NCBI GenBank assembly: GCA_965243115.1
Contig: CBDEUD010000003.1
Location: 2,392,325-2,456,324, forward strand
Reading direction: 5' to 3'
Length of the DNA stretch: 64,000 nucleotides
Source of the DNA: Gammaproteobacteria bacterium
GTDB lineage: Bacteria > Pseudomonadota > Gammaproteobacteria > Eutrophobiales > Eutrophobiaceae
The position numbers were made by a program, and so were the translations under genes. Below the pieces are notes generated by a model. It searched no databases, had not been told where the DNA came from, and was given only the letters and a program-made list of their open reading frames with translations. Of the stretch, positions 1-44,054 are shown one piece after another (the first letter of the stretch is position 1; each line of letters begins with the position of its first letter).

Positions 1-26
1 GATTCTTGCATAGAGGGGGAACATAA

Positions 27-2363
27 ATGAACGCAAGCCATCGTTTTTACAAAATATTCAGCATAGTTTTTGTGCTTTTGGTTTCAGTAACATCCGGCAT
101 TGCTTACGCACAGCTTCTGGAAGAAATTGTCGTCACTGCTCAAAAACGAGAGCAAAGGTTGCAGGATGTCGGCTTATCTGTGACGGCTTTCAGCGGTAAC
201 CAGATCAGGGAGCTCGCTTACACCAACAGCATTGATATCGGCCAACAGACCCCCGGGTTGCAGATTACGCAACTTCATGCTTCTACCACTCAGCTCAATA
301 TTCGCGGTGTGTCACAAAACGATTTTGCCGTTCACCTGGAAGGACCCATTGCAACGTATGTCGACAATGCTTATTCCAGCTCCATGGGTACGGCGCATGC
401 ACAGATTTTTGACCTGGAACGTGTGGAGGTATTGCGTGGTCCACAGGGTACACTCTTTGGTCGTAACGCCACCGGGGGATTACTTCATTTTCTGAGCAAA
501 AGACCCACCGAGGAATGGGAGGGGTATGGCGAATTCACGTACGGGAGTTACGATCAAATTAAATTTGAAGGTGCGGTGGGCGGCCCGTTAAGTGACAGGC
601 TTCGAGGAAGGATATCCTTCGCTACCAACAACCACGATGGGATTATGGAAAATCGTATTGGTCCGGACTTGAGAGACGCAGAAACATACTCAGTACGAGG
701 TCAATTGGAGTTTGACGTAACCGATAAATTTCAAGCCTATGTAAAACTGGCCTACTCGGAAGACGATAGCAGGGGCAACACTTACACACATTCGCCATCC
801 ACCTTTATAACCGCATCGGGGCTTGGTGAACTAATTACTGACACTGGTCAACCCCCACTTTTTCTCAGCTTGTTCGATCCACTCGACGGTATGGCCGACC
901 TGATTCTTGGTCCATGTTCCGGCTGTGATGCTTTCGGGTACCGGGAGCCCGACGACGATCCTCACACCGGTTCCTTCGATTTTATTCCATCCTTTGTAAG
1001 GGATATCTTTAATGCCCAGCTTGAGCTGACCTGGGACTTGGAAAATTTTACTGTGACTTCTATAACGGATTACCTTTATGTGAACAGGACATACGGTGAG
1101 GACACTGATGGTTCACCCTTTAACCAGGTAACTTTTGTGGATGTTGAAGACAGAGACCAGATTTCACAGGAGATTCGATTTAATGGCGAGACCGATAAAT
1201 TTACCTGGGTGGCCGGTGCATACTACCTGGATTTTGATGTCTTCTCAGTAGGCACGGTTACTCAGGACGCAGGCCCATTAACAACTTTTGGCTTTGACGG
1301 TTCAATGGGTGCTGTGGCAGGCCCTTTTACATTCCCACCCGCGCCGACGGGGCCATTTCCTCCGTTTGCCGGGCTTCCCTTTGATCACACTGGAACGACA
1401 AAATCAACGTCATGGGCGATTTTTGGGCATGTAGAAACTAAATTGTCAGAGCAGTTTTCCCTCGTAACGGCATTACGTTACACGGAAGATGATAGAGACA
1501 TGGATTTGACCATTGATAATCGTCAGTTGTTCATGAGTCCATTCGCCATCGTGTCGCTCGATCCTTCCAATTCACCTTTTGCGAGTTTGGAATTTGAAAA
1601 TGTGTCAGCCAAGATTCAGCTTGACTGGACACCCAATGAAGATTGGCTCCTGTATGCGGGCTTCACACGGGGACACAAGGCAGGCAACTTTTCCCAACCG
1701 TTCTTTATTCCCGCTGACTTAAGTGAACTGCCCCATGATGAAGAAGTGTTACACAGCTTTGACATAGGTGCGAAAGGGGTAATGCTTGATGGCAGACTGA
1801 GATTGAACGCTAGCATTTTCTATTATGACTACAAGGACTACCAGGCTTTTTTCTTTGAAAATCTGGCTCAGAAGGTGAGTAATTTTGATGCGAATGCCCT
1901 GGGAGCCGAGATCGAATTGGTATTCAATCCAGTGGATGCTCTGGATCTGTCATTTGGTGTATCGCTACTGGATACAGAGGTTGAGGATGTCGGTACACCC
2001 ATTGGTGTTCTCGATAGGGAGTTGCCATTTGCACCGGACGTTTCTTTCAATGGTCTGGCACGTTATACCTGGCCGGTCTTTGGTGGCAATCTATCTGCAC
2101 AGGTTGATTTCAATTACGTCGATGACTTCTGTTTCGGTGTCATCTGTCACCCACTTGAAGAGGAAGATTCCTATATCGTTGCAAATACCCAGTTGAGCTA
2201 CACCACAGATGATAAAAGGTGGCGTTTGGCGGCATTTGTTAAAAATGTGGGTGATGAGGAATATCGCAAAGCGGCTGTTGAATCAAGCTTTGCCGGGTTT
2301 AGTTCTGTTGTTTTTTCAGATCCCAGATGGTATGGGGGAAGTATTGCTTATCAGTGGAAGTAA
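27..2363 (+). CDS. TonB-dependent outer-membrane receptor
   Basis: N-terminal signal peptide (MNASHRFYKIFSIVFVLLVSVTSGIAYAQ). Plug-domain motif EEIVVTAQKREQRLQDVGLSVTAF. 778 aa, beta-barrel-like length, aromatic C-terminus (YQWK). SD-like agaggggga lies upstream. Confidence 0.85.
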   Translation: MNASHRFYKIFSIVFVLLVSVTSGIAYAQLLEEIVVTAQKREQRLQDVGLSVTAFSGNQIRELAYTNSIDIGQQTPGLQITQLHASTTQLNIRGVSQNDFAVHLEGPIATYVDNAYSSSMGTAHAQIFDLERVEVLRGPQGTLFGRNATGGLLHFLSKRPTEEWEGYGEFTYGSYDQIKFEGAVGGPLSDRLRGRISFATNNHDGIMENRIGPDLRDAETYSVRGQLEFDVTDKFQAYVKLAYSEDDSRGNTYTHSPSTFITASGLGELITDTGQPPLFLSLFDPLDGMADLILGPCSGCDAFGYREPDDDPHTGSFDFIPSFVRDIFNAQLELTWDLENFTVTSITDYLYVNRTYGEDTDGSPFNQVTFVDVEDRDQISQEIRFNGETDKFTWVAGAYYLDFDVFSVGTVTQDAGPLTTFGFDGSMGAVAGPFTFPPAPTGPFPPFAGLPFDHTGTTKSTSWAIFGHVETKLSEQFSLVTALRYTEDDRDMDLTIDNRQLFMSPFAIVSLDPSNSPFASLEFENVSAKIQLDWTPNEDWLLYAGFTRGHKAGNFSQPFFIPADLSELPHDEEVLHSFDIGAKGVMLDGRLRLNASIFYYDYKDYQAFFFENLAQKVSNFDANALGAEIELVFNPVDALDLSFGVSLLDTEVEDVGTPIGVLDRELPFAPDVSFNGLARYTWPVFGGNLSAQVDFNYVDDFCFGVICHPLEEEDSYIVANTQLSYTTDDKRWRLAAFVKNVGDEEYRKAAVESSFAGFSSVVFSDPRWYGGSIAYQWK

Positions 2364-2494
2364 GTCAGACTACAGAGCTCCGTTTTCTTTCCATGCGAGT
2401 TTTCTGATTGTCGCGCTCTGTTTAAATGTTACGGTCCTGAGTTTTTGACGGCGCGTTTTAATTCTTTTGGAGGGTCGCTCTATGTACGCCATTC

Positions 2495-3664
2495 GTGCCG
2501 CCTATATTCCCAATGATAAGGGAAATTCCAATGACTAATCACAATAATCATTTTCTGCAAAACGCCTGGTACTGCGCAAGCTGGAGTGACGAGGTCGGCG
2601 AGGGAATGTTCGAGCGTTTGGTCGCCAGGCACCCCCTCTTGTTATACCGGACCGCGGACGGTAATCCCGTCGCTTTGAAGAACATGTGCCCGCACCGGTT
2701 TTCTCCGCTGCACACCGGGAAGCTGGTTGACGATATCATCCAATGTCCCTATCACGGGCTACGTTTCGACAGCTCAGGAGCTTGCGTATATAACCCTCAC
2801 AGTGGCGGCCATATCCCCGAAACGCTATGTGTCCGCACCTATCCCGTCGTCGAGCGTTATGACATGCTCTGGGTATGGCTCGGCGAACCCGAACTAGCCA
2901 ATCCTGATACTATCCCTGATTTCAGTTATCAAACCGATTCAAGCTTTCACAGAATCGGCGGCGTCATCGATGTCAACGCTGGTTATCAAATGATCACTGA
3001 CAACCTGATGGATTTGTCGCACGTAGAGTTCGTTCATAAGGGTGGTCTTGGCACTGACTCCATAACTCGCGGCGAGCTTGAGATCCTTCAGGATGGCACT
3101 ACGGTGTGGGCCAACCGTTGGTGTCCTGACGGTCCACCACCGCCGGCGATGGCTCCAATGCTCGATAACCCCAACCAGGCGTACGATTTTTGGATGAATA
3201 TGCGTTGGGATGCGCCGGCACACATGGTCATCGATGCGGGCCTCGCCCCGAGGGGGAAGCCGCGGGAAAACGGGATTTGGATCTACGGTACCGCCATCCT
3301 GACGCCGAAAGATGAGACCTCGACAACTTATTTTTGGACAGTAACGCGCAATTACGCGACGGATGAGCCGGCTATGGATGCAATGTGGCAGGCGTCTATC
3401 GATATAGCCTTCCTCGAGCAGGACAAACCGACTATTGAAGCACAGCAGGCAATGATAGCGTTGCACGATGCAACAGACATCGACGATGGATTGAGGCCCG
3501 TGGTGCTTGGCTCAGACGCAGGACCGGTGCGTTGCCGCCATGTACTGAAGAAACTACGCGATAGTGATGGGGTGGAGTTACCTGATCCCCGTAATCCCGC
3601 ATTGAGCGAACTCGTCGAAAACTCACGCGGCAGCTACAACGGGCGTGTAACACCGATTGTCTAG
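2495..3664 (+). CDS. Rieske [2Fe-2S] non-heme iron oxygenase, VanA/phthalate-dioxygenase-like alpha subunit
   Basis: Rieske motif CPHRF...CPYHGLRF. N-terminal NAWYCASWSDEV is typical of VanA-type O-demethylase/PDO-family oxygenases. The true start is probably the internal MTNHNN (~2531). Confidence 0.8.
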   Translation: MPPIFPMIREIPMTNHNNHFLQNAWYCASWSDEVGEGMFERLVARHPLLLYRTADGNPVALKNMCPHRFSPLHTGKLVDDIIQCPYHGLRFDSSGACVYNPHSGGHIPETLCVRTYPVVERYDMLWVWLGEPELANPDTIPDFSYQTDSSFHRIGGVIDVNAGYQMITDNLMDLSHVEFVHKGGLGTDSITRGELEILQDGTTVWANRWCPDGPPPPAMAPMLDNPNQAYDFWMNMRWDAPAHMVIDAGLAPRGKPRENGIWIYGTAILTPKDETSTTYFWTVTRNYATDEPAMDAMWQASIDIAFLEQDKPTIEAQQAMIALHDATDIDDGLRPVVLGSDAGPVRCRHVLKKLRDSDGVELPDPRNPALSELVENSRGSYNGRVTPIV

Positions 3665-3817
3665 GCGGCGCTCCAATCCATGCCGGGTCTATAACTCCAA
3701 CCAAGTACACTTTATACAAAAGCAACATATGGGGAGCCGGCCTGATACGGTCAGGTATTTATAGTTTAAAGGTAAAATATTCAGAACTTCAGGTTAATAA
3801 AAGAAGGATAATTAAAG

Positions 3818-4450
3818 ATGGCAATTTTAAGGTTATCAAATGGTGAACTAATTACCGGCTACTCAGAAATTAATGAACTGATTGTGCCAGCGGGGATGGA
3901 AGTAGGCAGGTTTAACTACCCGGATCCCCTTGAAGCCAAAGTTAAGTCAATGGAAAAACCACTAAACCAGGATGGGGCAGAGTTTATATTTAGCGAGCTC
4001 TCTGCAAATGTGGAGAGTGTGGTGAAGGACCTGGACTTTAGTTACAACTATCGTCGCGCCGGCATTTTCGTTCCAGCAAAGGAAAAGGGTGGAACAAGTG
4101 CATTTTCTATGGCTGGTGATGACCAGATGCAAGTTGCATCTGCAGAGATGACCCCAGCTGATCTCGCTAATTATATGGCACCGCACATCTTGCGAGCGAA
4201 TAACTTACATTTCTCATTCCAGGGAGCCTTTATTAAAGGCATGCAATTGGGGTCAGATTTGCAGGCGATGATTTACGTGCTAGCGGGAGAGTGGCAACGG
4301 CTTGATCCAAATATACTATCCTGGGTTGTTTTCCCGAGTGGAGAACCCGTGATTGGGTTAAGTTTTTTTGATCAAAAACCAAACGCTAGCGGCGCACACG
4401 AGACAGACGTATTTCCTGATACTGAAATTTCGGGAACAGTTAAGTTTTGA
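3818..4450 (+). CDS. hypothetical protein (no recognisable family) on a low-GC segment
   Basis: 210-aa ORF with an AAGGAT SD-like sequence upstream. The flanks are AT-rich, in contrast to the window average. Confidence 0.45.
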   Translation: MAILRLSNGELITGYSEINELIVPAGMEVGRFNYPDPLEAKVKSMEKPLNQDGAEFIFSELSANVESVVKDLDFSYNYRRAGIFVPAKEKGGTSAFSMAGDDQMQVASAEMTPADLANYMAPHILRANNLHFSFQGAFIKGMQLGSDLQAMIYVLAGEWQRLDPNILSWVVFPSGEPVIGLSFFDQKPNASGAHETDVFPDTEISGTVKF

Positions 4451-4594
4451 GCGATTTAGATTATTCAAGTTGAAATGATGTTTAACAGGTTTTGAAGTGA
4501 ATATCTTCTACCAAAGCTGCGTCAATAAAGCTTTGTCAGAGCCATATGTTCGTCACGCGGAATCAGTGCTTGGATTAAACATGAGGGCTTCGGT

Positions 4595-5614
4595 ATGGGC
4601 GTGATGTGGGGAGAAAGAGTAGACGGAGGATATAAATCTTCCCTTGTATATCGCTTTTTTAAACCCAAAGATATCACCGGAAACGAGATAAATGGTCTCG
4701 GTGAGTCAGTAAAGCGCCGCCCCACTCCCATATATCACTGGTTTGGAATCCTTAAATTACCGTTTAATCGCGTATGGTGGCAATTGATCGCCTACACAAT
4801 GTTCAGGGGAACAAAGGCGACTGATGCTTATATGAAGACATGCCGAGAGTATGCTGAAAAGCCCTATGATCCTGTTGCAGAAAAAAGGGTCAACAAGTCA
4901 CCTGAAGAATGGACTGCTGACATCAAAAACTACGCCAAAGAGAAAGGTGCTGATCTTGTTGGTACGATGCGTATGCGGGAGGAATGGGTTTTCGAGGGGC
5001 TCGAGGTAAAGGAAAAATGGATCATAATACTGGGTTTGAAGATGAATTTTGATGAGCTTGCCAAGTCACCGGAACCTGAGGGTGTCGAAGCTGTAATAAA
5101 AACCTATGCTGATGGGAATATTCTCGTCCAGGACATCTCCAACTGGTTGCGAAGTAAAGGTTGGAGTGCAAATGGCTATGGTGGCCCCATGGCCAGTGCC
5201 GTGAATATGATACCTGTTGCACTCGCCGCAGGTTTTGGTGAGTTGGGTAAGCATGGCTCTATTATCAATCGCGACTTGGGCTCAAACCTGAGGTTGGCTT
5301 ATGTCCTCACTGACATTCCCCTGGTAGATGAAGATGAGGAAGACGATTTCGGGGCAGACAGTTTTTGTACTGCTTGCCAGATATGTACAAAGGCCTGCCC
5401 CCCTGCAGCAATTTTGTCGGAAAAACAGATGGTGAGAGGTGTAGAGAAATGGTACGTGGATTTTGACAAGTGTGTACCTTTCTTTAATGACCATGGTGGC
5501 TGTGGGGTATGTATTGCAGTTTGTCCCTGGAGTCGACCAAATGTCAGACCGAAACTCTTGTCAAAAATGTTAAAACAGAAATCGAAGCGAGAGATGTCGG
5601 CTTCGCTGCAATGA
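4595..5614 (+). CDS. QueG/reductive-dehalogenase superfamily iron-sulfur protein (epoxyqueuosine-reductase-like, truncated architecture)
   Basis: Two 4Fe-4S motifs, CTACQICTKACP and GGCGVCIAVCPWS. The segment GFGELGKHGSIINRDLGSNLRLAYVLTDIPL aligns by recall with QueG GLGWTGKHSLILNREAGSFFFLGELLVDIPL. The N-terminal WTADIKNYAKEKGADLVG resembles the QueG N-terminus. The C-terminal HEAT-like extension of QueG is absent. Confidence 0.65.
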   Translation: MGVMWGERVDGGYKSSLVYRFFKPKDITGNEINGLGESVKRRPTPIYHWFGILKLPFNRVWWQLIAYTMFRGTKATDAYMKTCREYAEKPYDPVAEKRVNKSPEEWTADIKNYAKEKGADLVGTMRMREEWVFEGLEVKEKWIIILGLKMNFDELAKSPEPEGVEAVIKTYADGNILVQDISNWLRSKGWSANGYGGPMASAVNMIPVALAAGFGELGKHGSIINRDLGSNLRLAYVLTDIPLVDEDEEDDFGADSFCTACQICTKACPPAAILSEKQMVRGVEKWYVDFDKCVPFFNDHGGCGVCIAVCPWSRPNVRPKLLSKMLKQKSKREMSASLQ

Positions 5615-5762
5615 AAGTACTCGCCATAGATGAAGCGAATCTTTCATATGACATGCTGCTTTGGGTGGCGCCCGGCAGTACTTTTGGGTCCGGCTGGCAT
5701 ATTCTGATATCAAACATACGCTGAAGGCGTAGAGATGGATTGCACAAACATGGCGCATCATT

Positions 5763-6944
5763 GTGAGGAGCGAGAAAGTGACCATAAATACCCCTGAATT
5801 TACTGACGAGGAGATTCTCGGTATCCGAGAGGGCATTAACGGTATTAAACGGCCCCTTCCGGCGCGTTGTTATCATGACGAAGAGATCTACCGGTTTGAA
5901 GTCGAACATATCCTGAAGAAAAACTGGTTGTGCGTAGGGCGTTGGGACTACGCGCAAAACCCCGGGGATTATTTCACCCGGACGATGTTCGGTGAATCAA
6001 TCGTCATCGTCAGGGACAAGGATCACAAACTTCACGCACTGATCAATGTCTGCCGGCACCGGTTTTGCCAGGTGCTGGAAGATGGCTCTGGTAACGTCAG
6101 CATGCTTGTGTGCCCTTTCCATGGCTGGACCTATAACCTGAATGGGAGCCTGCGTGCTGTCGGTGTCCGGAAAATAGAAGGCATGGATAAGGACAAATGC
6201 CGATTGCCGTCCCTGCGCCTTGAGGAGTGGCAGGGATTTATCTTTATCAATTTCGATCCGGATGCGCAGGCCCTGGGGCCGCAGCTTGAGGCAGTCAACC
6301 CGATTATGGATCTCTACGGCGTCTCGAAATACCGACATCAGCTCACCCAGGATTTCGATTCTCCGTGGAACTGGAAGCTGAATTTTGAAGCAGGCTATGA
6401 AGGCTACCACCATGCCGGGCTGCACAATGAGCGCTTCAACCATATCGAACCGGCATCCGGCTCGCGGCCGCTCTGGTTTGGTGAGATCTGTGGCTCCTAT
6501 GGGGTGCCCTTTGCTGATGATATCCCCCGGGAGGAGACACGTCCCTTTGGTTTACCGCCGCACATGAAAAGTGAAGATGATCCTGTTGAAATGGATACCT
6601 TCATCGCGGTGTATCCGGCTTTCATGATGTATGTGAACAGTTACCAGGTTTCCTACACGCTCGTGCAACACCAGGGCGTGGACATCAATATCGGGTCGAC
6701 GCCTCAGGCATTTGCACCCTGGGCGCTGGAAGCGCCCAATGCCGGGGAAATCATTGACGAGTTCAAGGAATTCACCGTGGAAGTACAAAAAGAGGACACC
6801 CTTGGCTGCACGATGATGCAGAAAGGTCTCAAGTCCCAAAGCGCCCGGGCTGGTTTCATCCATCCGTTGGAAGTGCAGATGAACCATTATCATAACTGGT
6901 ACCTGGATCAGTTCGAAAAGGTCAGGAATGCCGCTAAGGCGTAG
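5763..6944 (+). CDS. Rieske non-heme iron oxygenase alpha subunit (GbcA/Stc2/CntA-like, candidate N- or O-demethylating monooxygenase)
   Basis: Rieske motif CRHRFCQ...CPFHGWTY. ~390 aa alpha-only architecture with N-terminal EEIYRFEVEHILKKNWLCVGRWDY, typical of this subgroup. Confidence 0.75.
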   Translation: MRSEKVTINTPEFTDEEILGIREGINGIKRPLPARCYHDEEIYRFEVEHILKKNWLCVGRWDYAQNPGDYFTRTMFGESIVIVRDKDHKLHALINVCRHRFCQVLEDGSGNVSMLVCPFHGWTYNLNGSLRAVGVRKIEGMDKDKCRLPSLRLEEWQGFIFINFDPDAQALGPQLEAVNPIMDLYGVSKYRHQLTQDFDSPWNWKLNFEAGYEGYHHAGLHNERFNHIEPASGSRPLWFGEICGSYGVPFADDIPREETRPFGLPPHMKSEDDPVEMDTFIAVYPAFMMYVNSYQVSYTLVQHQGVDINIGSTPQAFAPWALEAPNAGEIIDEFKEFTVEVQKEDTLGCTMMQKGLKSQSARAGFIHPLEVQMNHYHNWYLDQFEKVRNAAKA

Positions 6945-6958: not shown

Positions 6959-7507
6959 TCACCCACCTAACCAATCCTGCAGAAACTGCGCCACGCTACG
7001 GTCCACCAGGATACGAAGTCGCGGGGTGTCATCCAGCCTATGGATAATGACCGGCAGGTGCTGCAACCGGGTCAAGGCATAGCGGCCGGAGGGAAAGGCG
7101 CTGTCATGGAGATCGACCGAACACCCTTCCGCCAGTCTGGCCACGGCATCCTCACCGGATATGTCGATGATGCTCCAGGCATCGGTCATATCCGTGACAA
7201 TGGCGGTGGCGTCACCGGCTGCGTCCCGTAATGCGCTTGAAACACTGTCGATATCCGGCGCCGGGTTAACCAGCAACCAGTCATTGGGCGCCAGCCAGTA
7301 TGCTGTCGGCTCGTTGTTTACCTTCTCCTGCGGGCTTTGCGGCAGGGTGCTTCCAATCAGCTTCTCAAACGGGGCCGGATTTATCCCGGCGCGTGGCCGC
7401 ACCTGCAGTCGCAGCTTGCGTGTACCGTCAGGCATGCAATCGATCTCCTTCCGGGTCCCAGGCAACGGGTGTACTGAGCTGTGCTGGATGAACCTGGCCA
7501 TTGTCAT
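6959..7507 (-). CDS. soxG: sarcosine oxidase gamma subunit (SoxG-like)
   Basis: Small ORF immediately downstream of soxA, in the operon position expected for the gamma subunit. The ORF overlaps the soxA 3' end, so the real start is probably the internal MPDGTRK (~7435). Confidence 0.6.
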   Translation of the reverse strand: MTMARFIQHSSVHPLPGTRKEIDCMPDGTRKLRLQVRPRAGINPAPFEKLIGSTLPQSPQEKVNNEPTAYWLAPNDWLLVNPAPDIDSVSSALRDAAGDATAIVTDMTDAWSIIDISGEDAVARLAEGCSVDLHDSAFPSGRYALTRLQHLPVIIHRLDDTPRLRILVDRSVAQFLQDWLGG

Positions 7508-10391
7508 ACACGTTCACCTTCTCACCCAGGCGCTTACTGCCGTCCTGCACCAGGCCGAGACCCACGTAACGTTGCAGGTTGGGACTGTAACAGGCCGAAG
7601 TCACGTAACCCTGGGTAGGTGCGGGTGCGCCCGAATGGTTCACATCGATAACATGCGCACCGGCTGTAAGAACGCCTCCTTCTCCCACAGGTGTAAGACC
7701 CACAAATTCAAAACGTCCGTTACTTACGTTGTGAGGGCGGCTCAGGGAACGCTTGCCCAGGAACTCGCCCTGCTTGCCGTCAGCTACATGGCCCCAGCCG
7801 ACGTCCCTGGGCGTGGTGTTGCCATCGGTATCGCTGCCCACGTGCAGGTATCCCTTCTCGGTCCGCAATATCCCCAGGGTTTCGACGCCGATCGGCACCA
7901 CTTGCAGGTCTTCACCGTGTTGCAGCAAGCGCTCCCACAAGGCCGGCCCCCAATCGGCAGGAACGTTCAGTTCATAGCATAGCTCGCCTGTATAGCTGGC
8001 CCTGAGTACGCGTACGGGTATGTCATCCAGCGTACCGGTGGCGATTGCCATGTGGGGTAACCCGTTGCCGCTGAGGTCAATACCGGACTCCAGCCGTTCA
8101 AGCAACTCTCTCGACCGCGGGCCGGATACGGCGATATTCGCCCACTGGCTGGTAACCGGCGTCAGCAATACGTCCAGGTCCGGCCAGTCGCCCTGCAGCA
8201 GGGCCTCCATCCAGGTGTGGATGCGATTCGCCCCGGCGCTGGTGGTATGCACCAGGTAGTGGTCGTCAGCCAGACGGGCAAAAATACCGTCGTCGATGAT
8301 AACGCCGTTTTCGTTCAGCATGAGACCGTAACGGGCCCGGCCGGTTCCCAGCGAGGTGACGTTGTTGATGTAAACGCGGTCCAGGAATTCAGCGGCGCCC
8401 GGTCCGCGCACTTCGATTTTCCCCAGCGGCGACCCGTCAAAGACGGCTACCAAGGTACGGGCGGCCACGGCCTCCCGGGCAATGGCCTGTTGTTCGCTTT
8501 CACCATTGCGCGGGTAAACCCGGGGACGGCGCCAGGTGCCGTAATCTTCAAATTGCGCGCCCAGTTGTTCGTGGCAGGCAAACAGCGGACTGCGCTGCAC
8601 CGGCGCATAGAAATCGCCCCTGTCACGTCCGGCAATAGCGCCCAGGGTTACCGGCATGTAGAAAGGCCGGAAGGTGGTAGTTCCCACCTGGTCAGGGGTC
8701 CTGTCCGTACGCTCCGCCAGGGCCAGCAGGGCATTCACGTTGCTGGTTTTGCCCTGGTCGACGGACATGCCGGTGGTGGTATAGCGTTTCATATGCTCCA
8801 CTGAGGTATAGTTCTCGGCTACTGCAATATCGATATCCCGCAGGGTCACGTCATACTGGAAATCGATCCACTGGCGGTCCGGGCGTTGTTCACACCCGGC
8901 CAGTTCAATATGCAGGGCGCCAGTGCTCTTCGAGCGCGTCCGGGGACGGACTTGAAGTCCGTCCCCAACGGCAGCGAGACCTGCCACCCGGCCCTGTTCC
9001 AGTGCATCGTCCAGGGACAGGACACCGGCTACCATACCCGCTACGTGCACATGGGGAGGGATCTCGTCCGGCACGAACGCACCCAGCGAGACGTCAAAAC
9101 GCAGCCTGCCGCGGGCCTGGGTGAACAGGTGCACCGCCGGTTGCCAGCCTCCGGACATGGCGACACAGTCACACTGCAACGTTGCCAGGGTTTCCCGGCT
9201 GCCCCGCCTGGCAACGGACACGCTGCGCACGCCTTTATCACCCCGGCAATCCAGCGGGACCGCATTGTGAAACACCGTCATGCCCTGATCACGCAATTCC
9301 CGGGCGCCCCTGCCGGCAAGTGACTTACGCGCATCGATCATGGCAACAACGTCAATACCTGAGTCCATGAGTGCGCCAGCTACGCCGTAGGCACTGTCGT
9401 TGTTGGTCGCAATGACGACGCGCTGACCCGGCGCCACTGCGTAGCGCTTGCAGTACTGTTGTACGGCGCCGGCCAGCATGACGCCCGGCCGGTCGTTGTT
9501 GGCGAAGAGCAGCGGCTGCTCGATGGCGCCGGTGGCGAAGATAATCTCGCGCGCATGGATCTTCCACAACCGCTGTCGCGGTCCTTCGCCCTGTCCTGTC
9601 TCACGCCGGTCGCTCAGCGTCTCGGAAGCGATTACCACGCGGTGGTCGAACCAGGCCGAAGCCGTGGTGTTGGTCAACAGGGTAACGTTGTCCCGCTGTT
9701 GCAAAGTACGGGCGGCGCGTTCCAGCCACACCTTCCCCGGTCTGCCATCGATGTCCTCTTCATTCCAGAGCAGGCTGCCGCCCACGTGGCTGTCCTGTTC
9801 AACGACGATAACCCGCGCCGCTTTCCTGCTCGCAGCCAGCGCCGCGCCCAGGCCGGCAGGGCCGCTGCCCACTACCAGGACATCACAATGCGCGTTATGG
9901 TGAACATAGTGATCGGGGTCATGGCCCACAGGCAGTTTGCCCAGTCCCGACAGGCGGCGGATAACCCCCTCGTACCAGTGCCAGTGCGGCCAGATAAAGG
10001 TCTTGTTGTAAAACCCGGCAGGCCAGAGGAAATGCAGGTAATCCAGACTGCGCCCGATATCAAACTTCACACCGGGCCAGCAGTTTTGACTGCGCGCCAC
10101 CAGTCCATCGTACAGAGGCTGCAACGTTGCCCGTACATTGGGTTCTTCCAGAGCGCCCTGTCCCACCGTCACCAGCGCATTGCACTCTTCAGCGCCGGCA
10201 GCAAGAATACCCCGGGGACGATGATACTTGAAACTGCGCCCCACCACGCGTACGCCGTTGGCCAGTAAGGCCGATGCCAGGGTGTCGCCTTTGAAGCCGC
10301 TGTATTGTTTGCCGTCGAAACTGAATGACAACGGCTTGCCACGGTCGATCCTGCCGCCCGTTTCAAACCGCATGGGTTGGGATGCAGTCAT
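7428..10391 (-). CDS. soxA: heterotetrameric sarcosine oxidase alpha subunit (SoxA-like, with C-terminal GcvT-like folate domain)
   Basis: 987 aa. N-terminus GGRIDRGKPLSFSFDGKQYSGFKGDTLASALLANGVRVVGRSFKYHRPRGI is the classical SoxA signature. Rossmann VLVVGSGPAGLGAALAA. C-terminal aminomethyltransferase-like region. Confidence 0.9.
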   Translation of the reverse strand: MTASQPMRFETGGRIDRGKPLSFSFDGKQYSGFKGDTLASALLANGVRVVGRSFKYHRPRGILAAGAEECNALVTVGQGALEEPNVRATLQPLYDGLVARSQNCWPGVKFDIGRSLDYLHFLWPAGFYNKTFIWPHWHWYEGVIRRLSGLGKLPVGHDPDHYVHHNAHCDVLVVGSGPAGLGAALAASRKAARVIVVEQDSHVGGSLLWNEEDIDGRPGKVWLERAARTLQQRDNVTLLTNTTASAWFDHRVVIASETLSDRRETGQGEGPRQRLWKIHAREIIFATGAIEQPLLFANNDRPGVMLAGAVQQYCKRYAVAPGQRVVIATNNDSAYGVAGALMDSGIDVVAMIDARKSLAGRGARELRDQGMTVFHNAVPLDCRGDKGVRSVSVARRGSRETLATLQCDCVAMSGGWQPAVHLFTQARGRLRFDVSLGAFVPDEIPPHVHVAGMVAGVLSLDDALEQGRVAGLAAVGDGLQVRPRTRSKSTGALHIELAGCEQRPDRQWIDFQYDVTLRDIDIAVAENYTSVEHMKRYTTTGMSVDQGKTSNVNALLALAERTDRTPDQVGTTTFRPFYMPVTLGAIAGRDRGDFYAPVQRSPLFACHEQLGAQFEDYGTWRRPRVYPRNGESEQQAIAREAVAARTLVAVFDGSPLGKIEVRGPGAAEFLDRVYINNVTSLGTGRARYGLMLNENGVIIDDGIFARLADDHYLVHTTSAGANRIHTWMEALLQGDWPDLDVLLTPVTSQWANIAVSGPRSRELLERLESGIDLSGNGLPHMAIATGTLDDIPVRVLRASYTGELCYELNVPADWGPALWERLLQHGEDLQVVPIGVETLGILRTEKGYLHVGSDTDGNTTPRDVGWGHVADGKQGEFLGKRSLSRPHNVSNGRFEFVGLTPVGEGGVLTAGAHVIDVNHSGAPAPTQGYVTSACYSPNLQRYVGLGLVQDGSKRLGEKVNVYDNGQVHPAQLSTPVAWDPEGDRLHA

Positions 10392-10705
10392 ACCGTTTCT
10401 TCCCGGTCCATATCCGGGGCCGCCTTATCGAGACGATACACGGCGAGAATCTCGTGGGTTACCGTATGACGGGCAACATTGAACCACTGCCGGCACCCGT
10501 AACGGTGCTGCCAGCGTTCGAAGTGGACCCCCTTGGGATTATCACGGTAAAACAGGTATTCGGCCCATTCCCGGTCCGACACCTGCTCTGCCGGTTCGGG
10601 CCGGGCTATATGGGCCTGCCCGCCGGAGACAAACTCGTTTTCATCACGTTCACCACAGAAAGGGCAGGAGATCCGGAACATGGCGATCCTTCTAGTGAGC
10701 CACAC
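10388..10705 (-). CDS. soxD: sarcosine oxidase delta subunit (SoxD-like)
   Basis: MFRISCPFCGERDENEFVSGGQAHIARPEP matches the SoxD family. ~97 aa counted from MFRISC. Sits between soxB and soxA. Confidence 0.8.
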   Translation of the reverse strand: MWLTRRIAMFRISCPFCGERDENEFVSGGQAHIARPEPAEQVSDREWAEYLFYRDNPKGVHFERWQHRYGCRQWFNVARHTVTHEILAVYRLDKAAPDMDREETV

Positions 10706-11936
10706 CCGCCGCGGCCGATTCGTCCACCAGGGCGCCGCTTTCGAAACGTTCCAGGGAGAAAGGTTTGATCAGCGCATGGGGCTGGTCCTTGACAATGGTA
10801 GAAGCCATGGTATCGCCGCTCGCCGGGATGGCCTTGTAACCGCCGGTGCCCCAGCCGCAGTTGATATACAGGTTCTGCACCGGCGTCCTGCCCATGATGG
10901 GACTGGTATCGGGCGAGATATCCACGATGCCGGCCCACTGGCGCATGAGCTTTAACCGGCTGAAACGTGGATACAGGGTCAGGAACGCCGCCACGCAGGA
11001 TTCGATGTTATCGTAACTGCCGCGCTGGGCATAGGAATTGTACACGTCGGCGCCAGCGCCCAGGACGATCTCGCCGCGGTCCGACTGGCTCGCATACATG
11101 TGTATGGCGCCGGACACGGTCACCAGATTAAGCGCCGGTTTAATCGGCTCCGATACCATGGCCTGCAGCGCCATGCTGGTGAGCGGCAGGCGGAAACCCG
11201 CCATCTTCGCCAGTACGCTGGTGTGGCCGGCGACGGTGATATGCACTTTTTCCGCGGAAATATCTCCCAGCGAGGTTTGTACCCCGGTAACCATGCCGTG
11301 GCTGATGTTAAAGCCTGTCACGGTACAGTTCTGGATGATATCCACTCCCAGGGCATCGGCGGCGCGGGCATAACCCCAGTTGACCGCATCATGGCGCGAG
11401 ATGCCGCCGCGCCATTGGATAAATCCACCGGCTACGGGAAAGCGCGCATTGATGTCAATGAGCGGTTCAAGTTCTTTGATTTGCTGCGCTGTCAGCATCT
11501 CGGAATCTATACCGTTAAGCTGGATGGCATTGGTCCAGCGCTTCAGCATCTCCATGTCATGATCGCTATGGGCAAGATTCAGCACCCCGCGCTGGCTGAA
11601 CATCACGTTGATATTGAGATCGCGGCTCATGCTTTCGTATAACTTCAGGGAGTGCTCGAAGAACGCGGCGCTCTCGGGATAGAAATAATTGGAACGGGTA
11701 ACCTGGGTATTGCGGCCGCTGTTGCCGCCGCCTATCCAACCGCGTTCCAGCACTGCCACATTAGTAACACCATGCTTTTTTGCCAGGTAATAGGCCGTGG
11801 CAAGACCATGCCCTCCCCCGCCGATAACGACCACGTCATAGGATTTCTTCGGTTCCGGCGAACGCCAGACCGGCTGCCAGCGTTTATGCCCTCTCAGCGC
11901 ATGGTAGAGGATTTTGGCAAAAGAATACTTCTCCAC
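10692..11936 (-). CDS. soxB: sarcosine oxidase beta subunit (SoxB-like FAD flavoprotein)
   Basis: VVVIGGGGHGLATAYYLAKKHGVTNVAVLERGWIGGGNSGRNT is the dinucleotide-binding motif of SoxB/DAO-family proteins. 414 aa. Confidence 0.9.
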   Translation of the reverse strand: MEKYSFAKILYHALRGHKRWQPVWRSPEPKKSYDVVVIGGGGHGLATAYYLAKKHGVTNVAVLERGWIGGGNSGRNTQVTRSNYFYPESAAFFEHSLKLYESMSRDLNINVMFSQRGVLNLAHSDHDMEMLKRWTNAIQLNGIDSEMLTAQQIKELEPLIDINARFPVAGGFIQWRGGISRHDAVNWGYARAADALGVDIIQNCTVTGFNISHGMVTGVQTSLGDISAEKVHITVAGHTSVLAKMAGFRLPLTSMALQAMVSEPIKPALNLVTVSGAIHMYASQSDRGEIVLGAGADVYNSYAQRGSYDNIESCVAAFLTLYPRFSRLKLMRQWAGIVDISPDTSPIMGRTPVQNLYINCGWGTGGYKAIPASGDTMASTIVKDQPHALIKPFSLERFESGALVDESAAAGVAH

Positions 11937-11980
11937 GACTGGTACCTGATGGTCTTAGAATAATATGTTACGGAATCCGG

Positions 11981-13126
11981 TTATTCCATCTCGTTGACAA
12001 CGATATTCTCCCCCGTGTTGCGCAACAACTCAATCCACCTGTCAACGTGTTCCCTGTCCGAGGGAACAGGCGTTATGCCGGTTTCGACTTCGCCGTTCAG
12101 TATGGCCTCGACTACCAGAGAAACCGGGACTGAAACGAGTCTTGCCATGGCAGACCCCCGTTCATCACCGGTGCTGTCCAGGAGATATTGCCGGGCCCAT
12201 ACCTGCCTGCCCGTTTTGTCCCTGGCGCTTAACTCCACACTCAGTACGACCCGGTCCGGTTCCCCTTCGGCATACTGGTGTTGCCGCCATAACTCTTCAC
12301 TCAACCCGGCAAGGCGTTGCTCACCGGCTGCCCCGGTTGCGTTCTCCACCGTGCGGAAAATATCCTCCCAGGCCTTTGCCCAACCCTCAAGCCGCAGTGT
12401 GCCGCGTACGAAGTGTTCAATCGTCCAGTTACTTTCAATCCCGTATTGCCTGATGAACGGCAACGAATCCCGGTTGGGGAAAGCCTCAAAACGTTCTCCG
12501 TTGACCAGGAAAGCATCGATTTCCCTGTAAGGCGTCCCGGTGTTGCGTTCCTCACCCCGGGCAATCCAGCGGGCCGGTGTATTGAGTGCCTTCAGCACAC
12601 CCAGCGGAGACCAGGAAAACTTGTAGGTGAATTCATCCGCCTCAAGCGGAAAACCGCCGCAGTAAGAATGAAATGAGATGATGTTCCCAGGGTCAAATAC
12701 ACCGCTACGCCGGTAGCTGTCCAGCAGTGCATGGGCGAACAGGTGGTCCAGTCCCGGGTCAAGGCCGCACTCATTGACGAAGCATAATTGTTTTGCCCTG
12801 GCTTGCGCATCAAGCATTGCCATCTCTTCAGAAATGTAACTCGAAGTAACAAAGTGCGCACCGGTTTCCAGGCAAAGTCCTGCCGCACGCAGGTGCATGG
12901 GTGCGGGCAACATGGATACCACTACATCACCCGGCTTGACTCTCGATGCCAGCAGCGTCCAATCAAATTCCCTGGCAGCGGTATCAGCGGAGCGTATGCC
13001 TGCAAACGCGGTCTGTGCTTTCGCCAGGGTCCTGTTCCATACGGTGATCGGATAATCCGACAGCGCCAACCTGCGTATACCCGGCACAGATGACAGGCCT
13101 GCTCCAAGCCAGTGAACGTGGTGCAT
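11981..13126 (-). CDS. saccharopine dehydrogenase family oxidoreductase, LYS9-like (saccharopine reductase type)
   Basis: Blocks VTSSYIS, NECGLDPGLDHL, SYCGGFP, YKFSWSPLGVL, FPNRDS and RGTLRLEGW align with yeast Lys9 blocks VTSSYIS, MNEIGLDPGIDHL, SYCGGLP, YKFSWSSRGVL, YPNRDS and RGTLRYQGF (from recall). Confidence 0.8.
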   Translation of the reverse strand: MHHVHWLGAGLSSVPGIRRLALSDYPITVWNRTLAKAQTAFAGIRSADTAAREFDWTLLASRVKPGDVVVSMLPAPMHLRAAGLCLETGAHFVTSSYISEEMAMLDAQARAKQLCFVNECGLDPGLDHLFAHALLDSYRRSGVFDPGNIISFHSYCGGFPLEADEFTYKFSWSPLGVLKALNTPARWIARGEERNTGTPYREIDAFLVNGERFEAFPNRDSLPFIRQYGIESNWTIEHFVRGTLRLEGWAKAWEDIFRTVENATGAAGEQRLAGLSEELWRQHQYAEGEPDRVVLSVELSARDKTGRQVWARQYLLDSTGDERGSAMARLVSVPVSLVVEAILNGEVETGITPVPSDREHVDRWIELLRNTGENIVVNEME

Positions 13127-14814: not shown

Positions 14815-16122
14815 TCAATTCGTCGGCCAACTGAACACCCTCACCGCGCCTTCGGAAACGTCGAGTTCGCACTTCACCATCTCTCCTTTGCGGATGATGG
14901 CCGGCAGCGCCGCACCGTCCCGTTCCAGCAGGGAAATGTCTTCCAGGGGATTGCCGTCCACAACCAGCAGGTCGGCAAACGCCCCTTCCCTGATACAACC
15001 GAGCCTGTCGGGTTCCATCAGGATCTCGGCGTTGACTGCCGTGGCCTGGTGAAGGATCTCAAATGGCGTGAAGACTTGTTTCCTGATAGCAAATTCCGTG
15101 CATTGCCGTACATGTTGCGCGCCCAGCAGGTCCGTACCCAGGCCCATTTTCACACCGGCAGCGCGCATGGTTTCCAGACCATCCATAGCCTGGGCGTAAA
15201 CAAGCTTGACTTTTTCCTGGCCAGCTGGCGGCAGACCATACTTGGCGCCTTCTTCATGAAGTGCGAACAGTACTGCAAAAGTGGGAACGACGTAGGCATT
15301 CCGGCCGGCCACATAGTCCGCGGTTTCCTTGTCAATCAGGGTCGCATGCTCGATACAGCGCACCCCGAACTCCACACAACGCCTGACCGCTTCGGTCGGG
15401 TGGCAATGGGCTGACACGTAGGTTTCCTGACGTGCGCATTCATCCACCGCAGCGCGAATCTCTTCTTCGGTAAACTGTGTGTGGTGCAGTGGATCATTGG
15501 GACTGACTACACCACCAGACCCCATTATCTTTATGCAATGGGAGCCCTTTCTCAATTCGTCGCGTACTGCGCGCCGCATTTCATAAGGATCATCGACAAT
15601 GCGCGTCAGTTTGGTCGAATAGTTGCCACAGGTACAAAGTTGATCCGATGGATCCACTTCCCAGCCCGGGCGCATATCGCCGTGCCCCCCGGTTTGCGAC
15701 ATGATTTTTCCTGCGTAATAAAAACGCGGGGCACGCACCAGTCCATGGTCGATAGCGCGGGAGATTCCGACGTCACCGCCCCCAATATCGCGTATCGTTG
15801 TAAATCCCCGAGCCAGGGTCGCATTGAGAAACACATTGGCATACTGGGCAATATACGTCTCCGGCATCCTGGATAGCGCCGTCGTATCCAGGGTGGGGAT
15901 ACATACATGGATATGATTATCTATCAGACCGGGTATCACGGTGCGACCCCCGGCATCGACCACGTGATCGCTCCGGCTGCCTGTCTCGCTCGTGGAGATT
16001 TCTTTGATCTCGCCATCCGCCAGCAAGATGTTGGAACGGTCCGACAGTTCCGGGCTATGTCCGTCAAATATATGCGCATTTTTTATAAGTATCGATTCAC
16101 TGGTCATCTCTGTCATTCTCAT
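14815..16122 (-). CDS. amidohydrolase-family metal-dependent hydrolase
   Basis: IPGLIDNHIHV metal-binding HxH motif near the N-terminus, 435 aa, with further His/Asp positions. The start overlaps the upstream gene by 4 bp (ATGA). Confidence 0.8.
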   Translation of the reverse strand: MRMTEMTSESILIKNAHIFDGHSPELSDRSNILLADGEIKEISTSETGSRSDHVVDAGGRTVIPGLIDNHIHVCIPTLDTTALSRMPETYIAQYANVFLNATLARGFTTIRDIGGGDVGISRAIDHGLVRAPRFYYAGKIMSQTGGHGDMRPGWEVDPSDQLCTCGNYSTKLTRIVDDPYEMRRAVRDELRKGSHCIKIMGSGGVVSPNDPLHHTQFTEEEIRAAVDECARQETYVSAHCHPTEAVRRCVEFGVRCIEHATLIDKETADYVAGRNAYVVPTFAVLFALHEEGAKYGLPPAGQEKVKLVYAQAMDGLETMRAAGVKMGLGTDLLGAQHVRQCTEFAIRKQVFTPFEILHQATAVNAEILMEPDRLGCIREGAFADLLVVDGNPLEDISLLERDGAALPAIIRKGEMVKCELDVSEGAVRVFSWPTN

Positions 16123-37135: not shown

Positions 37136-37269
37136 CCGGAATCGTCAAAAACCGGATATAGATTTGCAGTATAGTATAAATAACGGAAGTGCGCGGATAT
37201 TTCTCATTTGATTTTATGCGGTATTTGTGAATATTCTTAACAGTACTGAAACAGGAAACATCAGTTCCC

Positions 37270-37839: not shown

Positions 37840-37855
37840 GCCTGCTTCCGCTCAG
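37836..37855. terminator. small hairpin CTGAGC-N8-GCTCAG spanning the convergent stop codons of ubiX and the flavoprotein gene
   Basis: 6-bp inverted repeat. The only intergenic sequence between these convergent genes is 12 bp, so this is weak as a terminator. Confidence 0.3.
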
Positions 37856-39291: not shown

Positions 39292-39362
39292 TATACATTA
39301 AAAATATATCTCAACATACTGTTTAAAAAAATTTAATTTTTTCATTTTCTATTCCCTAATCC

Positions 39363-41460: not shown

Positions 41461-41483
41461 GAACGTTCAACGCATTGCGATTT

Positions 41484-43154: not shown

Positions 43155-43186
43155 AATTGATTTAACATGAAATTACGCTAAATTCA

Positions 43187-43274: not shown

Positions 43275-43284
43275 CTGTGGTTAA

Positions 43285-44028: not shown

Positions 44029-44054
44029 AGCAATTCCCTGGCCCCTGCCCCCTG

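What the first reader, a model, noticed from the sequence alone, without database searches (positions are those of the whole stretch)
4595..5614. Non-canonical, shortened QueG-like protein
The core (GELGKHGSIINRDLGSNLRLAYVLTDIPL...CTACQICTKACP...GGCGVCIAVCPWS) aligns with epoxyqueuosine reductase. However, the protein is 339 aa, lacks the C-terminal HEAT-like tRNA-binding extension of QueG, and has an unrelated ~70-aa N-terminus. A QueG catalytic core without the tRNA-recognition domain argues for a non-tRNA substrate.
Basis: partly seen in the sequence, partly recalled or inferred. Interest (0 to 1): 0.5.

Follow-up and report, generated by a model that had tools for sequence, protein, structure and literature searches.

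The report
Compact reductive-dehalogenase-like B12 enzyme, not QueG
The gene is intact and encodes a small cytoplasmic vitamin-B12 and iron-sulfur reductase that resembles reductive dehalogenases far more than the tRNA enzyme QueG; it belongs to a widespread, uncharacterised family and here sits in an imported aromatic-compound degradation island.

The parts
4595..5614 (+). Gene for a compact (339 aa) RdhA-like class-III cobalamin / 2x[4Fe-4S] reductase
4583..4587 (+). GAGGG Shine-Dalgarno-like site, 7 nt before the ATG
   Evidence: Read from the sequence. The start is consistent with the family consensus, which begins MGxxxG.
4664..4735 (+). Family-specific N-terminal motif (residues 24-47: PKDITGNEINGLGESVKRRPTPIY)
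   Evidence: N33 is present in 145/145 members, G29 in 144/145, and N30, E37 and R41 in 139/145 each. There is no sequence match to any PDB chain. Modelled at pLDDT 94-98.
5105..5107 (+). Codon of Tyr171, the counterpart of the catalytic tyrosine shared by class-III B12 enzymes (PceA Y246, NpRdhA Y426, QueG Y101)
   Evidence: Residue-by-residue count on the HMMER alignments. Tyr in 144/145 family members. Role of the tyrosine from PMC4646009.
5231..5260 (+). Loop G213-F-G-E-L-G-K-H-G-S222, aligned with the GLGxxxRxG loop of RdhAs; inferred to contact the corrinoid
   Evidence: G213, G218, K219, G221 and S222 are present in 145/145 members, H220 in 141/145. Aligned to PceA 285-293 and NpRdhA. 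The cofactor contact is an inference.
5291..5293 (+). Codon of Arg233, the counterpart of PceA Arg305 / NpRdhA Lys488 (partner of the tyrosine; absent from QueG)
   Evidence: Alignment count. Arg in 145/145 members. Absence of an equivalent in QueG is stated in PMC4646009.
5366..5401 (+). First [4Fe-4S] motif, C258xxC261xxC264xxxC268-P269
   Evidence: Sequence. Fer4_7 E 9e-9. All four Cys are present in 145/145 members.
5471..5527 (+). Second [4Fe-4S] motif, C293-x9-C303xxC306xxxC310-P311. It includes the invariant F297, which occupies the position of the NpRdhA substrate-binding residue R552
   Evidence: Sequence. Alignment count. F297 is present in 140/145 members and the Cys in 145/145.
27..2363 (+). 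TonB-dependent outer-membrane receptor; its orthologs travel with the gene within this clade
   Evidence: Orthologs of 55-77% identity lie near the RdhA-like gene in L001, L002/L003 and L007. Plug and TonB_dep_Rec domains in the orthologs.
2495..3664 (+). VanA-family Rieske O-demethylase, closest solved relative DdmC (dicamba O-demethylase oxygenase)
   Evidence: Rieske plus VanA_C domains. PDB 3gb4 E 5.8e-82 over the full length, about 39% identity.
3818..4450 (+). 210-aa cupin with an acireductone-dioxygenase-like fold; linked to the downstream Rieske oxygenase rather than to the RdhA-like gene
   Evidence: No Pfam or PDB sequence hit. AF2 pLDDT 91.6. Foldseek 4qgl E 4e-7. In L088 it sits beside an RHO with no RdhA-like gene present.
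5763..6944 (+). Alpha-only Rieske ring-hydroxylating-type oxygenase; its orthologs travel with the gene within this clade
   Evidence: Rieske plus Ring_hydroxyl_A domains. Best PDB match is CntA, 2e-33, over the N-terminal half only. Orthologs of 61-65% identity in L001 and L002/L003.

Best explanation
The gene encodes a soluble, cytoplasmic class-III cobalamin enzyme of the reductive-dehalogenase (RdhA) lineage in its most compact form: one corrinoid-binding nitroreductase-like core, a two-[4Fe-4S] ferredoxin module, and a family-specific N-terminal segment.

Shown: the fold, the eight cluster cysteines, and the conserved Tyr171/Arg233 pair at the positions of the RdhA proton relay. Also shown: the absence of QueG's signature residues and HEAT domain, and the absence of a Tat signal, membrane helix or vestigial duplicated domain.

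Inferred mechanism: electrons from NAD(P)H pass through a separately encoded phthalate-dioxygenase-reductase-type flavin/[2Fe-2S] protein or a ferredoxin. They then travel through the two [4Fe-4S] clusters to base-off cobalamin. The reduced cobalt attacks a carbon-bound leaving group on the substrate, most likely a halogen, while Tyr171, activated by Arg233, protonates the carbon.

Inferred role here: a catabolic step in a horizontally acquired island. The island comprises a GntR regulator and MFS transporter just upstream of the window, then a TonB-dependent receptor, a DdmC-like O-demethylase, a cupin, this gene, and a Rieske oxygenase. The proposed step removes a halogen from a substituted methoxy- or hydroxy-benzoate-type compound so that the oxygenases can finish its degradation.
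For: RdhA rather than QueG:
- TIGR02486 scores 109 bits against 50 bits for TIGR00276.
- PDB phmmer gives PceA 1.5e-23, NpRdhA 1e-18 and QueG 1.4e-7.
- The family profile gives NpRdhA 1.5e-43, PceA 3e-41 and QueG 5e-10.
- Foldseek gives 6e-18 (PceA) and 2e-16 (NpRdhA) against 1e-8 (QueG).

Catalytic pair: Y171 aligns with PceA Y246 and NpRdhA Y426. R233 aligns with PceA R305 and NpRdhA K488. They are conserved in 144/145 and 145/145 family members.

Cytoplasmic location: the maximum 19-residue hydropathy is 1.36, and there is no N-terminal twin-arginine signal (sequence).

Real family: homologs are full length, and at least 577 species genomes carry one.

Electron source: relative P0163 is the same core fused to FAD_binding_6, NAD_binding_1 and Fer2 domains. 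This is the architecture of self-sufficient catabolic RdhAs (PMC10463259).

Catabolic character:
- Genomes carry 2-3 divergent paralogs, 35-48% identical to each other.
- In this clade, orthologous TonB receptor and Rieske oxygenase genes move with the gene.
- The neighbour at 2495-3664 is 39% identical over its full length to the oxygenase that O-demethylates the chlorinated aromatic acid dicamba (PMC9404685).
- GntR and MFS genes lie just upstream in the 99%-identical locus L087.
- The gene's GC is 46% against 56% for the window.
Against: - No substrate or activity evidence exists for any member of this family.
- The protein is below the curated RdhA cutoff (109 against 160 bits) and is not hit by Pfam PF13486.
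- The NpRdhA substrate-binding residue Arg552 is replaced by an invariant Phe297, and the pocket-lining N-terminal segment is unique to the family. The substrate class may therefore differ from ortho-halophenols.
- Family-wide there is no conserved neighbour. I found 77 Pfam families among 63 same-strand neighbours and 102 among 71 others. The catabolic context therefore holds only for this clade.
- The similarity to DdmC may partly reflect how few VanA-family structures have been solved.
- No reductase or ferredoxin partner is encoded in the 64 kb.
- The cupin and Rieske module occurs elsewhere without an RdhA-like gene.
Confidence: 0.5

Rival explanations
1. The protein has the same fold and cofactors but different chemistry. 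It would be a cobalamin/[4Fe-4S] reductase acting on a non-halogenated leaving group, for example an epoxide as in QueG or another C-O, C-N or C-S reductive elimination. The substrate would be a small metabolite common to many aerobic bacteria.
Against: The Tyr/Arg pair that defines RdhA proton transfer is invariant, while QueG's acid residues are absent. Multiple divergent paralogs per genome fit substrate diversification in catabolism. The local neighbour resembles an enzyme of chlorinated-aromatic degradation.
Confidence: 0.33
2. The protein is a redox carrier, not an enzyme. It would use its two [4Fe-4S] clusters to feed electrons to the neighbouring Rieske oxygenases, which have no reductase or ferredoxin gene nearby, and the B12-type domain would be vestigial.
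For: It is flanked by two Rieske oxygenases, and no reductase gene was found in the 64 kb. Sources annotate homologs as 'ferredoxin'. NpRdhA itself carries a vestigial, cofactor-less copy of the domain (PMC10463259).
Against: The putative corrinoid-loop residues and the Tyr171/Arg233 pair are invariant across 145 members, which is not expected for a vestigial domain. Most family members are not next to Rieske genes. In the fusion protein P0163 the core is the recipient of a reductase module, as in catalytic RdhAs.
Confidence: 0.07
3. The protein is the organism's housekeeping epoxyqueuosine reductase, a divergent QueG that recognises tRNA without the HEAT domain.
For: It belongs to the same superfamily. 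The G-K-H-G loop resembles QueG's. Some sources name homologs 'epoxyqueuosine reductase'. Whether the genome has a canonical queG or queH could not be checked.
Against: It scores 50 bits against the 200-bit QueG cutoff. It has no D-Y-H motif and no HEAT domain, and it has the Arg that QueG lacks. The structural match to QueG covers 186 residues, against about 280 for RdhAs. Genomes carry 2-3 paralogs. The gene has atypical GC and sits in a catabolic island.
Confidence: 0.03

Closest known systems
Catabolic reductive dehalogenases NpRdhA (Nitratireductor pacificus), BhbA (Comamonas sp. 7D-2) and JtRdhA (Jhaorihella thermophila)
   Different: About half the size. It lacks the vestigial duplicated cobalamin-binding domain that defines catabolic RdhAs (PMC10463259). 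Identity is only 18-21%. NpRdhA Arg552 is replaced by an invariant Phe297. It has its own N-terminal motif. It falls below the TIGR02486 cutoff.
Respiratory reductive dehalogenases (PceA of Sulfurospirillum multivorans; PceA of Desulfitobacterium hafniense, PDB 8q4h)
   Different: No Tat signal peptide, no RdhB anchor gene nearby, and no insertion or C-terminal units (339 against 464-503 aa). Hosts are aerobic heterotrophs rather than organohalide respirers.
Epoxyqueuosine reductase QueG
   Same: Same superfamily: class-III B12, base-off cobalamin, two [4Fe-4S] clusters and the conserved active-site Tyr. The G-K-[HN] loop is similar.
Compact cytosolic RdhA-like proteins known from surveys: the 'simplified cytosolic type' of cold-seep Desulfobacterota and Chloroflexota (PMC12219181), and T7RdhA/A6RdhA of Acidimicrobiaceae (PMC10008544)
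   Same: Short, Tat-less RdhA-like proteins with no vestigial domain, predicted or shown to bind a corrinoid and two [4Fe-4S] clusters. Their substrates are unknown or contested.
   Different: Those average about 395 aa and come from other phyla. The cysteine spacing of T7RdhA (C296/299/302/306 and C339/350/353/357, with the Tyr at 213) does not fit this family (C258/261/264/268 and C293/303/306/310, with the Tyr at 171). Neither paper describes the N-terminal SGNxINGLGE..RRP motif.
MMACHC / CblC cobalamin-processing proteins
   Different: No ferredoxin module and only distant similarity (9-11% identity). They act on the cofactor itself.

Membership tests
Epoxyqueuosine reductase QueG (NCBIfam TIGR00276) | Score at or above the curated family cutoff | tested here: not met
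   50.2 bits against a cutoff of 200. Only residues 206-315 match.
Epoxyqueuosine reductase QueG (NCBIfam TIGR00276) | Strictly conserved D-Y-H active-site motif plus a catalytic Asp (S. thermophilus D100-Y101-H102 and D130; PMC4646009) | tested here: not met
   The Tyr is present, but it is flanked by T170 and A172. Across 145 members, position 170 is Q/T/V/I and position 172 is N/A/G/Y. The position aligned to PceA N272 / QueG D130 is S201, which is G/S/T in the family; this rests on a transitive alignment.
Epoxyqueuosine reductase QueG (NCBIfam TIGR00276) | C-terminal HEAT-repeat domain, the proposed tRNA-binding element | tested here: not met
Epoxyqueuosine reductase QueG (NCBIfam TIGR00276) | Reduces epoxyqueuosine in tRNA; the only such gene in the genome | not testable with these tools
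   Only 64 kb of the genome is available. It holds no second homolog.
Reductive dehalogenase catalytic subunit RdhA (TIGR02486 / Pfam PF13486) | Score at or above the curated family cutoff | tested here: not met
   TIGR02486 is the best family, at 109.4 bits, but the cutoff is 160.35. PF13486 was not reported even at E 0.1.
Reductive dehalogenase catalytic subunit RdhA (TIGR02486 / Pfam PF13486) | Corrinoid-binding nitroreductase-like core followed by a ferredoxin module, superposable on solved RdhAs | tested here: met
Reductive dehalogenase catalytic subunit RdhA (TIGR02486 / Pfam PF13486) | Two cluster motifs, CxxCxxCxxxCP and Cx(2-12)CxxCxxxCP | tested here: met
   C258/261/264/268-P and C293-x9-C303/306/310-P. 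All eight Cys are present in 145/145 members.
Reductive dehalogenase catalytic subunit RdhA (TIGR02486 / Pfam PF13486) | Active-site Tyr paired with Arg or Lys (PceA Y246/R305; NpRdhA Y426/K488) | tested here: met
   Y171 and R233 align to these residues. They are conserved in 144/145 and 145/145 members. Their spatial proximity was not checked, because no model coordinates were available.
Respiratory RdhA subfamily | Tat signal peptide and an adjacent rdhB membrane-anchor gene | tested here: not met
   No N-terminal RR signal or hydrophobic region; maximum 19-residue hydropathy is 1.36. The neighbours are a cupin and a Rieske oxygenase.
Catabolic RdhA subfamily (NpRdhA/BhbA type) | [quoted passage not shown] | tested here: not met
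   The protein is 339 aa in total. The family profile matches both halves of NpRdhA (71-221 and 343-576), but the query has only one copy.
Any RdhA | Corrinoid occupancy and reductive carbon-halogen cleavage | not testable with these tools
   Requires purified protein and assays.
Unnamed compact RdhA-like family (about 335 aa; NCBI name '4Fe-4S dicluster domain-containing protein') | Full-length colinearity, N-terminal motif SGNxINGLGExxxRRPxPxY, G-E-L-G-K-H-G-S loop, and FDKCxPxFN in the second cluster motif | tested here: met
   The query covers 87-100% of homologs of 305-367 aa at 43-99% identity. All motif residues are present.

The most novel reading that the evidence does not exclude
These compact proteins may form a fifth, so far unrecognised architectural class of the RdhA/QueG superfamily. 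They lack a Tat signal, a membrane anchor, a vestigial domain and a HEAT domain, and they have their own invariant N-terminal pocket motif. They are common in aerobic soil and marine bacteria. In this reading their natural substrates are not the classical organohalides: they could be a distinct class of natural haloaromatics, or non-halogen leaving groups. That would make this a new B12-dependent reaction, or a large hidden reservoir of oxygen-tolerant dehalogenases.
Probability: 0.3. Interest if true: 0.7.

Novelty: new variant of a known kind. Interest (0 to 1): 0.42.

Why it matters
Fisher et al. 2023 (PMC10463259) sort reductive dehalogenases into four subfamilies by domain organisation: respiratory, transmembrane, and two catabolic types that both carry a vestigial domain. 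This gene represents a smaller, stand-alone form that fits none of them. Databases label it only as an Fe-S protein or mislabel it as QueG. It occurs in hundreds of aerobic species from soil and sea.

If these proteins are active dehalogenases, they would be compact, probably oxygen-tolerant catalysts useful for bioremediation and for understanding natural halogen cycling. Surveys that rely on RdhA HMM cutoffs would be missing them. If they catalyse something else, they would extend the short list of class-III B12 reactions.

For genome annotation, the practical point is that the 'QueG' call for this family is wrong.

Tried and rejected
- Frameshift or truncation of a full QueG or RdhA. Rejected, because length and end-points are conserved in the family.
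- A family-wide partner gene. I called ORFs in 86 loci, clustered them and scanned the immediate neighbours against Pfam. No family recurs in more than 4 of 63 or 3 of 71 neighbours.
- The 210-aa upstream ORF as a dedicated partner. Rejected, because a 54%-identical homolog sits beside a Rieske oxygenase with no RdhA-like gene.
- A reductase partner in the window. A tblastn search with the reductase half of P0163 found nothing in the 64 kb.
- Same family as T7RdhA/A6RdhA. Rejected on cysteine and tyrosine spacing.
- A cobalamin riboswitch or other RNA element. There is no Rfam hit anywhere in the window.
- Operon boundaries from promoter and terminator scans. Counts were no higher than in shuffled sequence, so the scan was uninformative.
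- A functional link to the adjacent soxBDAG genes. Judged unlikely, because they lie on the opposite strand and have very different composition (GC3 about 70% against 46%).
- Exact-sequence look-ups of the window's own proteins found no record, so the source genome could not be read beyond the window. The upstream context was taken from the 99%-identical locus L087 instead.
- The AFDB Foldseek library was unavailable.
- Literature searches found no characterised member of this family.

Full report
**Observation.** The window has an ATG-to-stop ORF at 4595-5614 on the + strand, encoding 339 aa. A GAGGG site lies 7 nt upstream. The quoted peptides are present. The protein carries two cluster motifs, C258xxCxxCxxxCP and C293x9CxxCxxxCP, and stops 29 residues after the last cysteine. 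Pfam reports only 4Fe-4S dicluster models. NCBIfam ranks the reductive dehalogenase model TIGR02486 first, at E 3.1e-31 and 109 bits (cutoff 160). QueG (TIGR00276) comes second, at 1.8e-13 and 50 bits (cutoff 200). Against PDB sequences the order is PceA 1.5e-23, D. hafniense PceA 2.2e-21, NpRdhA about 1e-18, and QueG 1.4e-7 and 6e-4. It is the weaker of two resemblances within one superfamily.

**Not a truncation.** A search of 5.8 billion proteins gave 4248 hits. The best 120 are 212-367 aa, all but one fragment 305 aa or longer. They typically cover 87-100% of the query at 43-99% identity. An alignment of 62 of them is colinear from the first residues to the C-terminus. In the 50%-identity library, the full-length matches that include the N-terminus number a few dozen clusters. 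A second tier of relatives, 290-330 aa long, matches only from about residue 90 onward. A scan of one genome per species found at least 577 species with a relative. The closest is a Halieaceae MAG at 65% identity, with two copies. Others include Alpha-, Beta- and Gammaproteobacteria, Acidobacteriaceae such as Tunturiibacter psychrotolerans, Gemmatimonadales, Actinomycetota and Binataceae. To my knowledge these are mostly aerobic heterotrophs. Sources name the proteins '4Fe-4S dicluster domain-containing protein', 'ferredoxin' or, wrongly, 'epoxyqueuosine reductase'.

**Structure.** AlphaFold2 with the family alignment gave pLDDT 96.2 and pTM 0.93, with no low-confidence segment.
- Foldseek against the PDB: PceA 6e-18; NpRdhA 2e-16 with TM 0.66-0.73 normalised to the query; QueG 1e-8 with TM 0.40-0.44.
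- Family profile against PDB sequences: NpRdhA 1.5e-43, PceA 3e-41, QueG 5e-10. The profile also weakly matches the vestigial N-terminal domain of NpRdhA. Its first 92 or so positions match nothing.

**Active site.** I counted residues along the HMMER alignments. Tyr171 aligns with PceA Tyr246 and NpRdhA Tyr426. Arg233 aligns with PceA Arg305 and NpRdhA Lys488. Phe297 aligns with NpRdhA Arg552. According to Payne et al. (PMC4646009), the Tyr is shared by QueG and RdhAs. QueG is defined by a strictly conserved D-Y-H motif and Asp130, and it has no equivalent of Arg305. In 145 family members, Tyr171 is present in 144, and Arg233 and all eight cysteines in 145. The residues flanking the Tyr are never D and H. 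K219 (145/145), H220 (141), N33 (145), G29 (144), F290 (144) and F297 (140) are also fixed. The catalytic signature is therefore RdhA-type, and the pocket is distinct from that of NpRdhA. The maximum 19-residue hydropathy is 1.36, and the only RR pair (residues 41-42) lies inside the conserved, folded motif. I see no Tat signal or membrane helix.

**Place among known architectures.** Fisher et al. (PMC10463259) divide RdhAs into respiratory, transmembrane, and two catabolic subfamilies. Both catabolic types carry a vestigial duplicated core, and they differ in having or lacking a phthalate-dioxygenase-reductase domain. This protein has none of those accessories. Short cytosolic forms have been noted in surveys. 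One is the 'simplified cytosolic type' in cold-seep Desulfobacterota and Chloroflexota, averaging 395 aa (PMC12219181). Another is T7RdhA/A6RdhA (PMC10008544), whose cysteine and tyrosine spacing does not fit this family. I found no paper on this family.

**Electron supply.** One relative, P0163 (764 aa, 35% identity over residues 13-332), joins the same core to FAD_binding_6, NAD_binding_1 and Fer2 domains. That is the layout of self-sufficient catabolic RdhAs. By inference, stand-alone members take electrons from NAD(P)H through such a reductase in trans. None is encoded in the 64 kb. P0146, P0148, P0163 and P0164 also carry an N-terminal extension of about 100 aa with a hydrophobic stretch.

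**Genomic context.** Across the family the neighbours look random. I found 77 Pfam families among 63 same-strand adjacent genes and 102 among 71 others, and none recurs more than four times. Genomes often carry 2-3 paralogs that are only 35-48% identical to each other, which is typical of a diversifying catabolic family.

Within the window's own clade the context is conserved. Orthologs of the TonB-dependent receptor (55-77% identity) and of the Rieske oxygenase at 5763-6944 (61-65%) accompany the gene in L001 and in L002/L003; L007 keeps the receptor ortholog (73%), but its Rieske match is only 38% identical over the N-terminal half. L001 and L002 also carry a second paralog.

The 99%-identical locus L087 shows a GntR/FCD regulator and an MFS transporter just upstream of the window start. 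To my knowledge this resembles the vanR-vanK arrangement. The gene at 2495-3664 is a VanA-family Rieske oxygenase, about 39% identical over its full length to DdmC, the oxygenase of dicamba O-demethylase. That enzyme converts a chlorinated methoxybenzoate to 3,6-dichlorosalicylate (PMC9404685).

The 210-aa ORF folds as an acireductone-dioxygenase-like cupin. Elsewhere it accompanies a Rieske oxygenase without an RdhA-like gene.

The receptor, the cupin and the RdhA-like gene have 45-47% GC. The window averages 56%, and the adjacent sox genes on the opposite strand have GC3 of about 70%. This suggests recent horizontal acquisition and argues against a functional link to the sox genes.

**Interpretation.** I am confident (about 0.85) that this is an intact, cytoplasmic, RdhA-type cobalamin/[4Fe-4S] reductase of an uncharacterised compact family, and not QueG. 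The specific reading is less secure (about 0.5). In that reading the enzyme is a catabolic reductive dehalogenase acting on a halogenated methoxy- or hydroxy-aromatic acid, imported through the receptor and further processed by the Rieske oxygenases and the cupin. It rests on the conserved Tyr/Arg pair, the fusion protein, the paralog pattern and the clade-specific neighbourhood.

The main rival (about 0.33) is the same machinery acting on a non-halogen leaving group. It is favoured by the family's own invariant pocket residues, the loss of the NpRdhA Arg552 position, the sub-threshold RdhA score, and the lack of any family-wide context. An electron-carrier role (about 0.07) and a divergent housekeeping QueG (about 0.03) are unlikely for the reasons given above.

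**Limits.**
- No model coordinates were available, so I could not measure pocket geometry or the Tyr-Arg distance.
- The QueG Asp130 comparison relies on a transitive alignment.
- My neighbour analysis used a simple ORF caller.
- Whether the genome has a canonical queG or queH could not be tested.

Noticed in passing
window 3818-4450 (+): A 210-aa ORF with no Pfam or PDB sequence match. It folds confidently (pLDDT 91.6) as an acireductone-dioxygenase-like cupin (Foldseek 4qgl E 4e-7). Only 23 homolog clusters exist, all at least 54% identical. In L088 it sits beside Lumazine_bd_2, Rieske RHO and SDR genes.
   Followed up: partly
window 1-6944 compared with 6959 onward: The composition is a mosaic. 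The TonB receptor has 47.3% GC, the cupin 45.2% and the RdhA-like gene 46.3%. The two Rieske genes have 53-54% (GC3 60-64%), and the adjacent sox genes 58-62% (GC3 about 70%). Identity to the syntenic locus L001 is also uneven: 96% for the DdmC-like gene, 90% for the cupin, 78% for the RdhA-like gene, 77% for the receptor and 65% for the RHO. This suggests the island was assembled piecemeal by horizontal transfer.
   Followed up: partly
window 2495-3664 (+): A VanA-family Rieske oxygenase about 39% identical over its full length to DdmC, the dicamba O-demethylase oxygenase (PDB 3gb4, E 5.8e-82). No reductase or ferredoxin component lies nearby.
   Followed up: partly
L087 3343-5394 (the region just upstream of window position 1 in a 99%-identical contig): A GntR/FCD regulator and an MFS transporter directly precede the TonB receptor. 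This is a vanR/vanK-like arrangement that the window cuts off. In this long-read assembly the VanA-like and RHO genes are split by apparent frameshift errors.
   Followed up: no
L001 693-1664; L002 16828-end; L033 8972-11017; L026: Second, divergent paralogs of the family (35-41% identical) lie in the same islands. In L033 two copies are in tandem. The 'type B' paralog of L001 and L002 has its own N-terminal extension.
   Followed up: partly
P0163, P0146, P0148, P0164 (relatives, not in the window): Members with an N-terminal extension of about 100 aa that contains a hydrophobic stretch, possibly a membrane anchor. P0163 also has a C-terminal FAD/NAD/[2Fe-2S] reductase module.
   Followed up: partly
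window 6959-13126 (-): A heterotetrameric sarcosine-oxidase-family operon (soxG, soxA, soxD, soxB; soxA 1236 bits, soxB 637 bits). It is followed by a saccharopine-dehydrogenase-like gene, and an Xaa-Pro dipeptidase-like amidohydrolase lies further on at 14815-16122.
   Followed up: no
window 34967-45299 (-): A second catabolic-looking stretch: a molybdopterin oxidoreductase, two VAO-type FAD oxidases, a UbiD-family decarboxylase, a SnoaL_4 + CDGSH iron-sulfur protein, and another Rieske ring-hydroxylating oxygenase. A similar molybdopterin oxidoreductase lies next to the RdhA-like gene in L002/L003.
   Followed up: no
window 48000-56000: Strong positive AT skew (0.13-0.27) coincides with three Proton_antipo_M genes on the minus strand (nuoL/M/N- or Mrp-like, 49188-54146). 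This is probably a codon-composition effect of membrane proteins.
   Followed up: no
window 32895-34820 (+): A bacterial angiotensin-converting-enzyme-like M2 peptidase (Peptidase_M2, E 1e-217) lies next to a POT-family peptide transporter.
   Followed up: no
whole window: No Rfam family reaches its gathering score anywhere in the 64 kb: no tRNA, riboswitch or sRNA.
   Followed up: no
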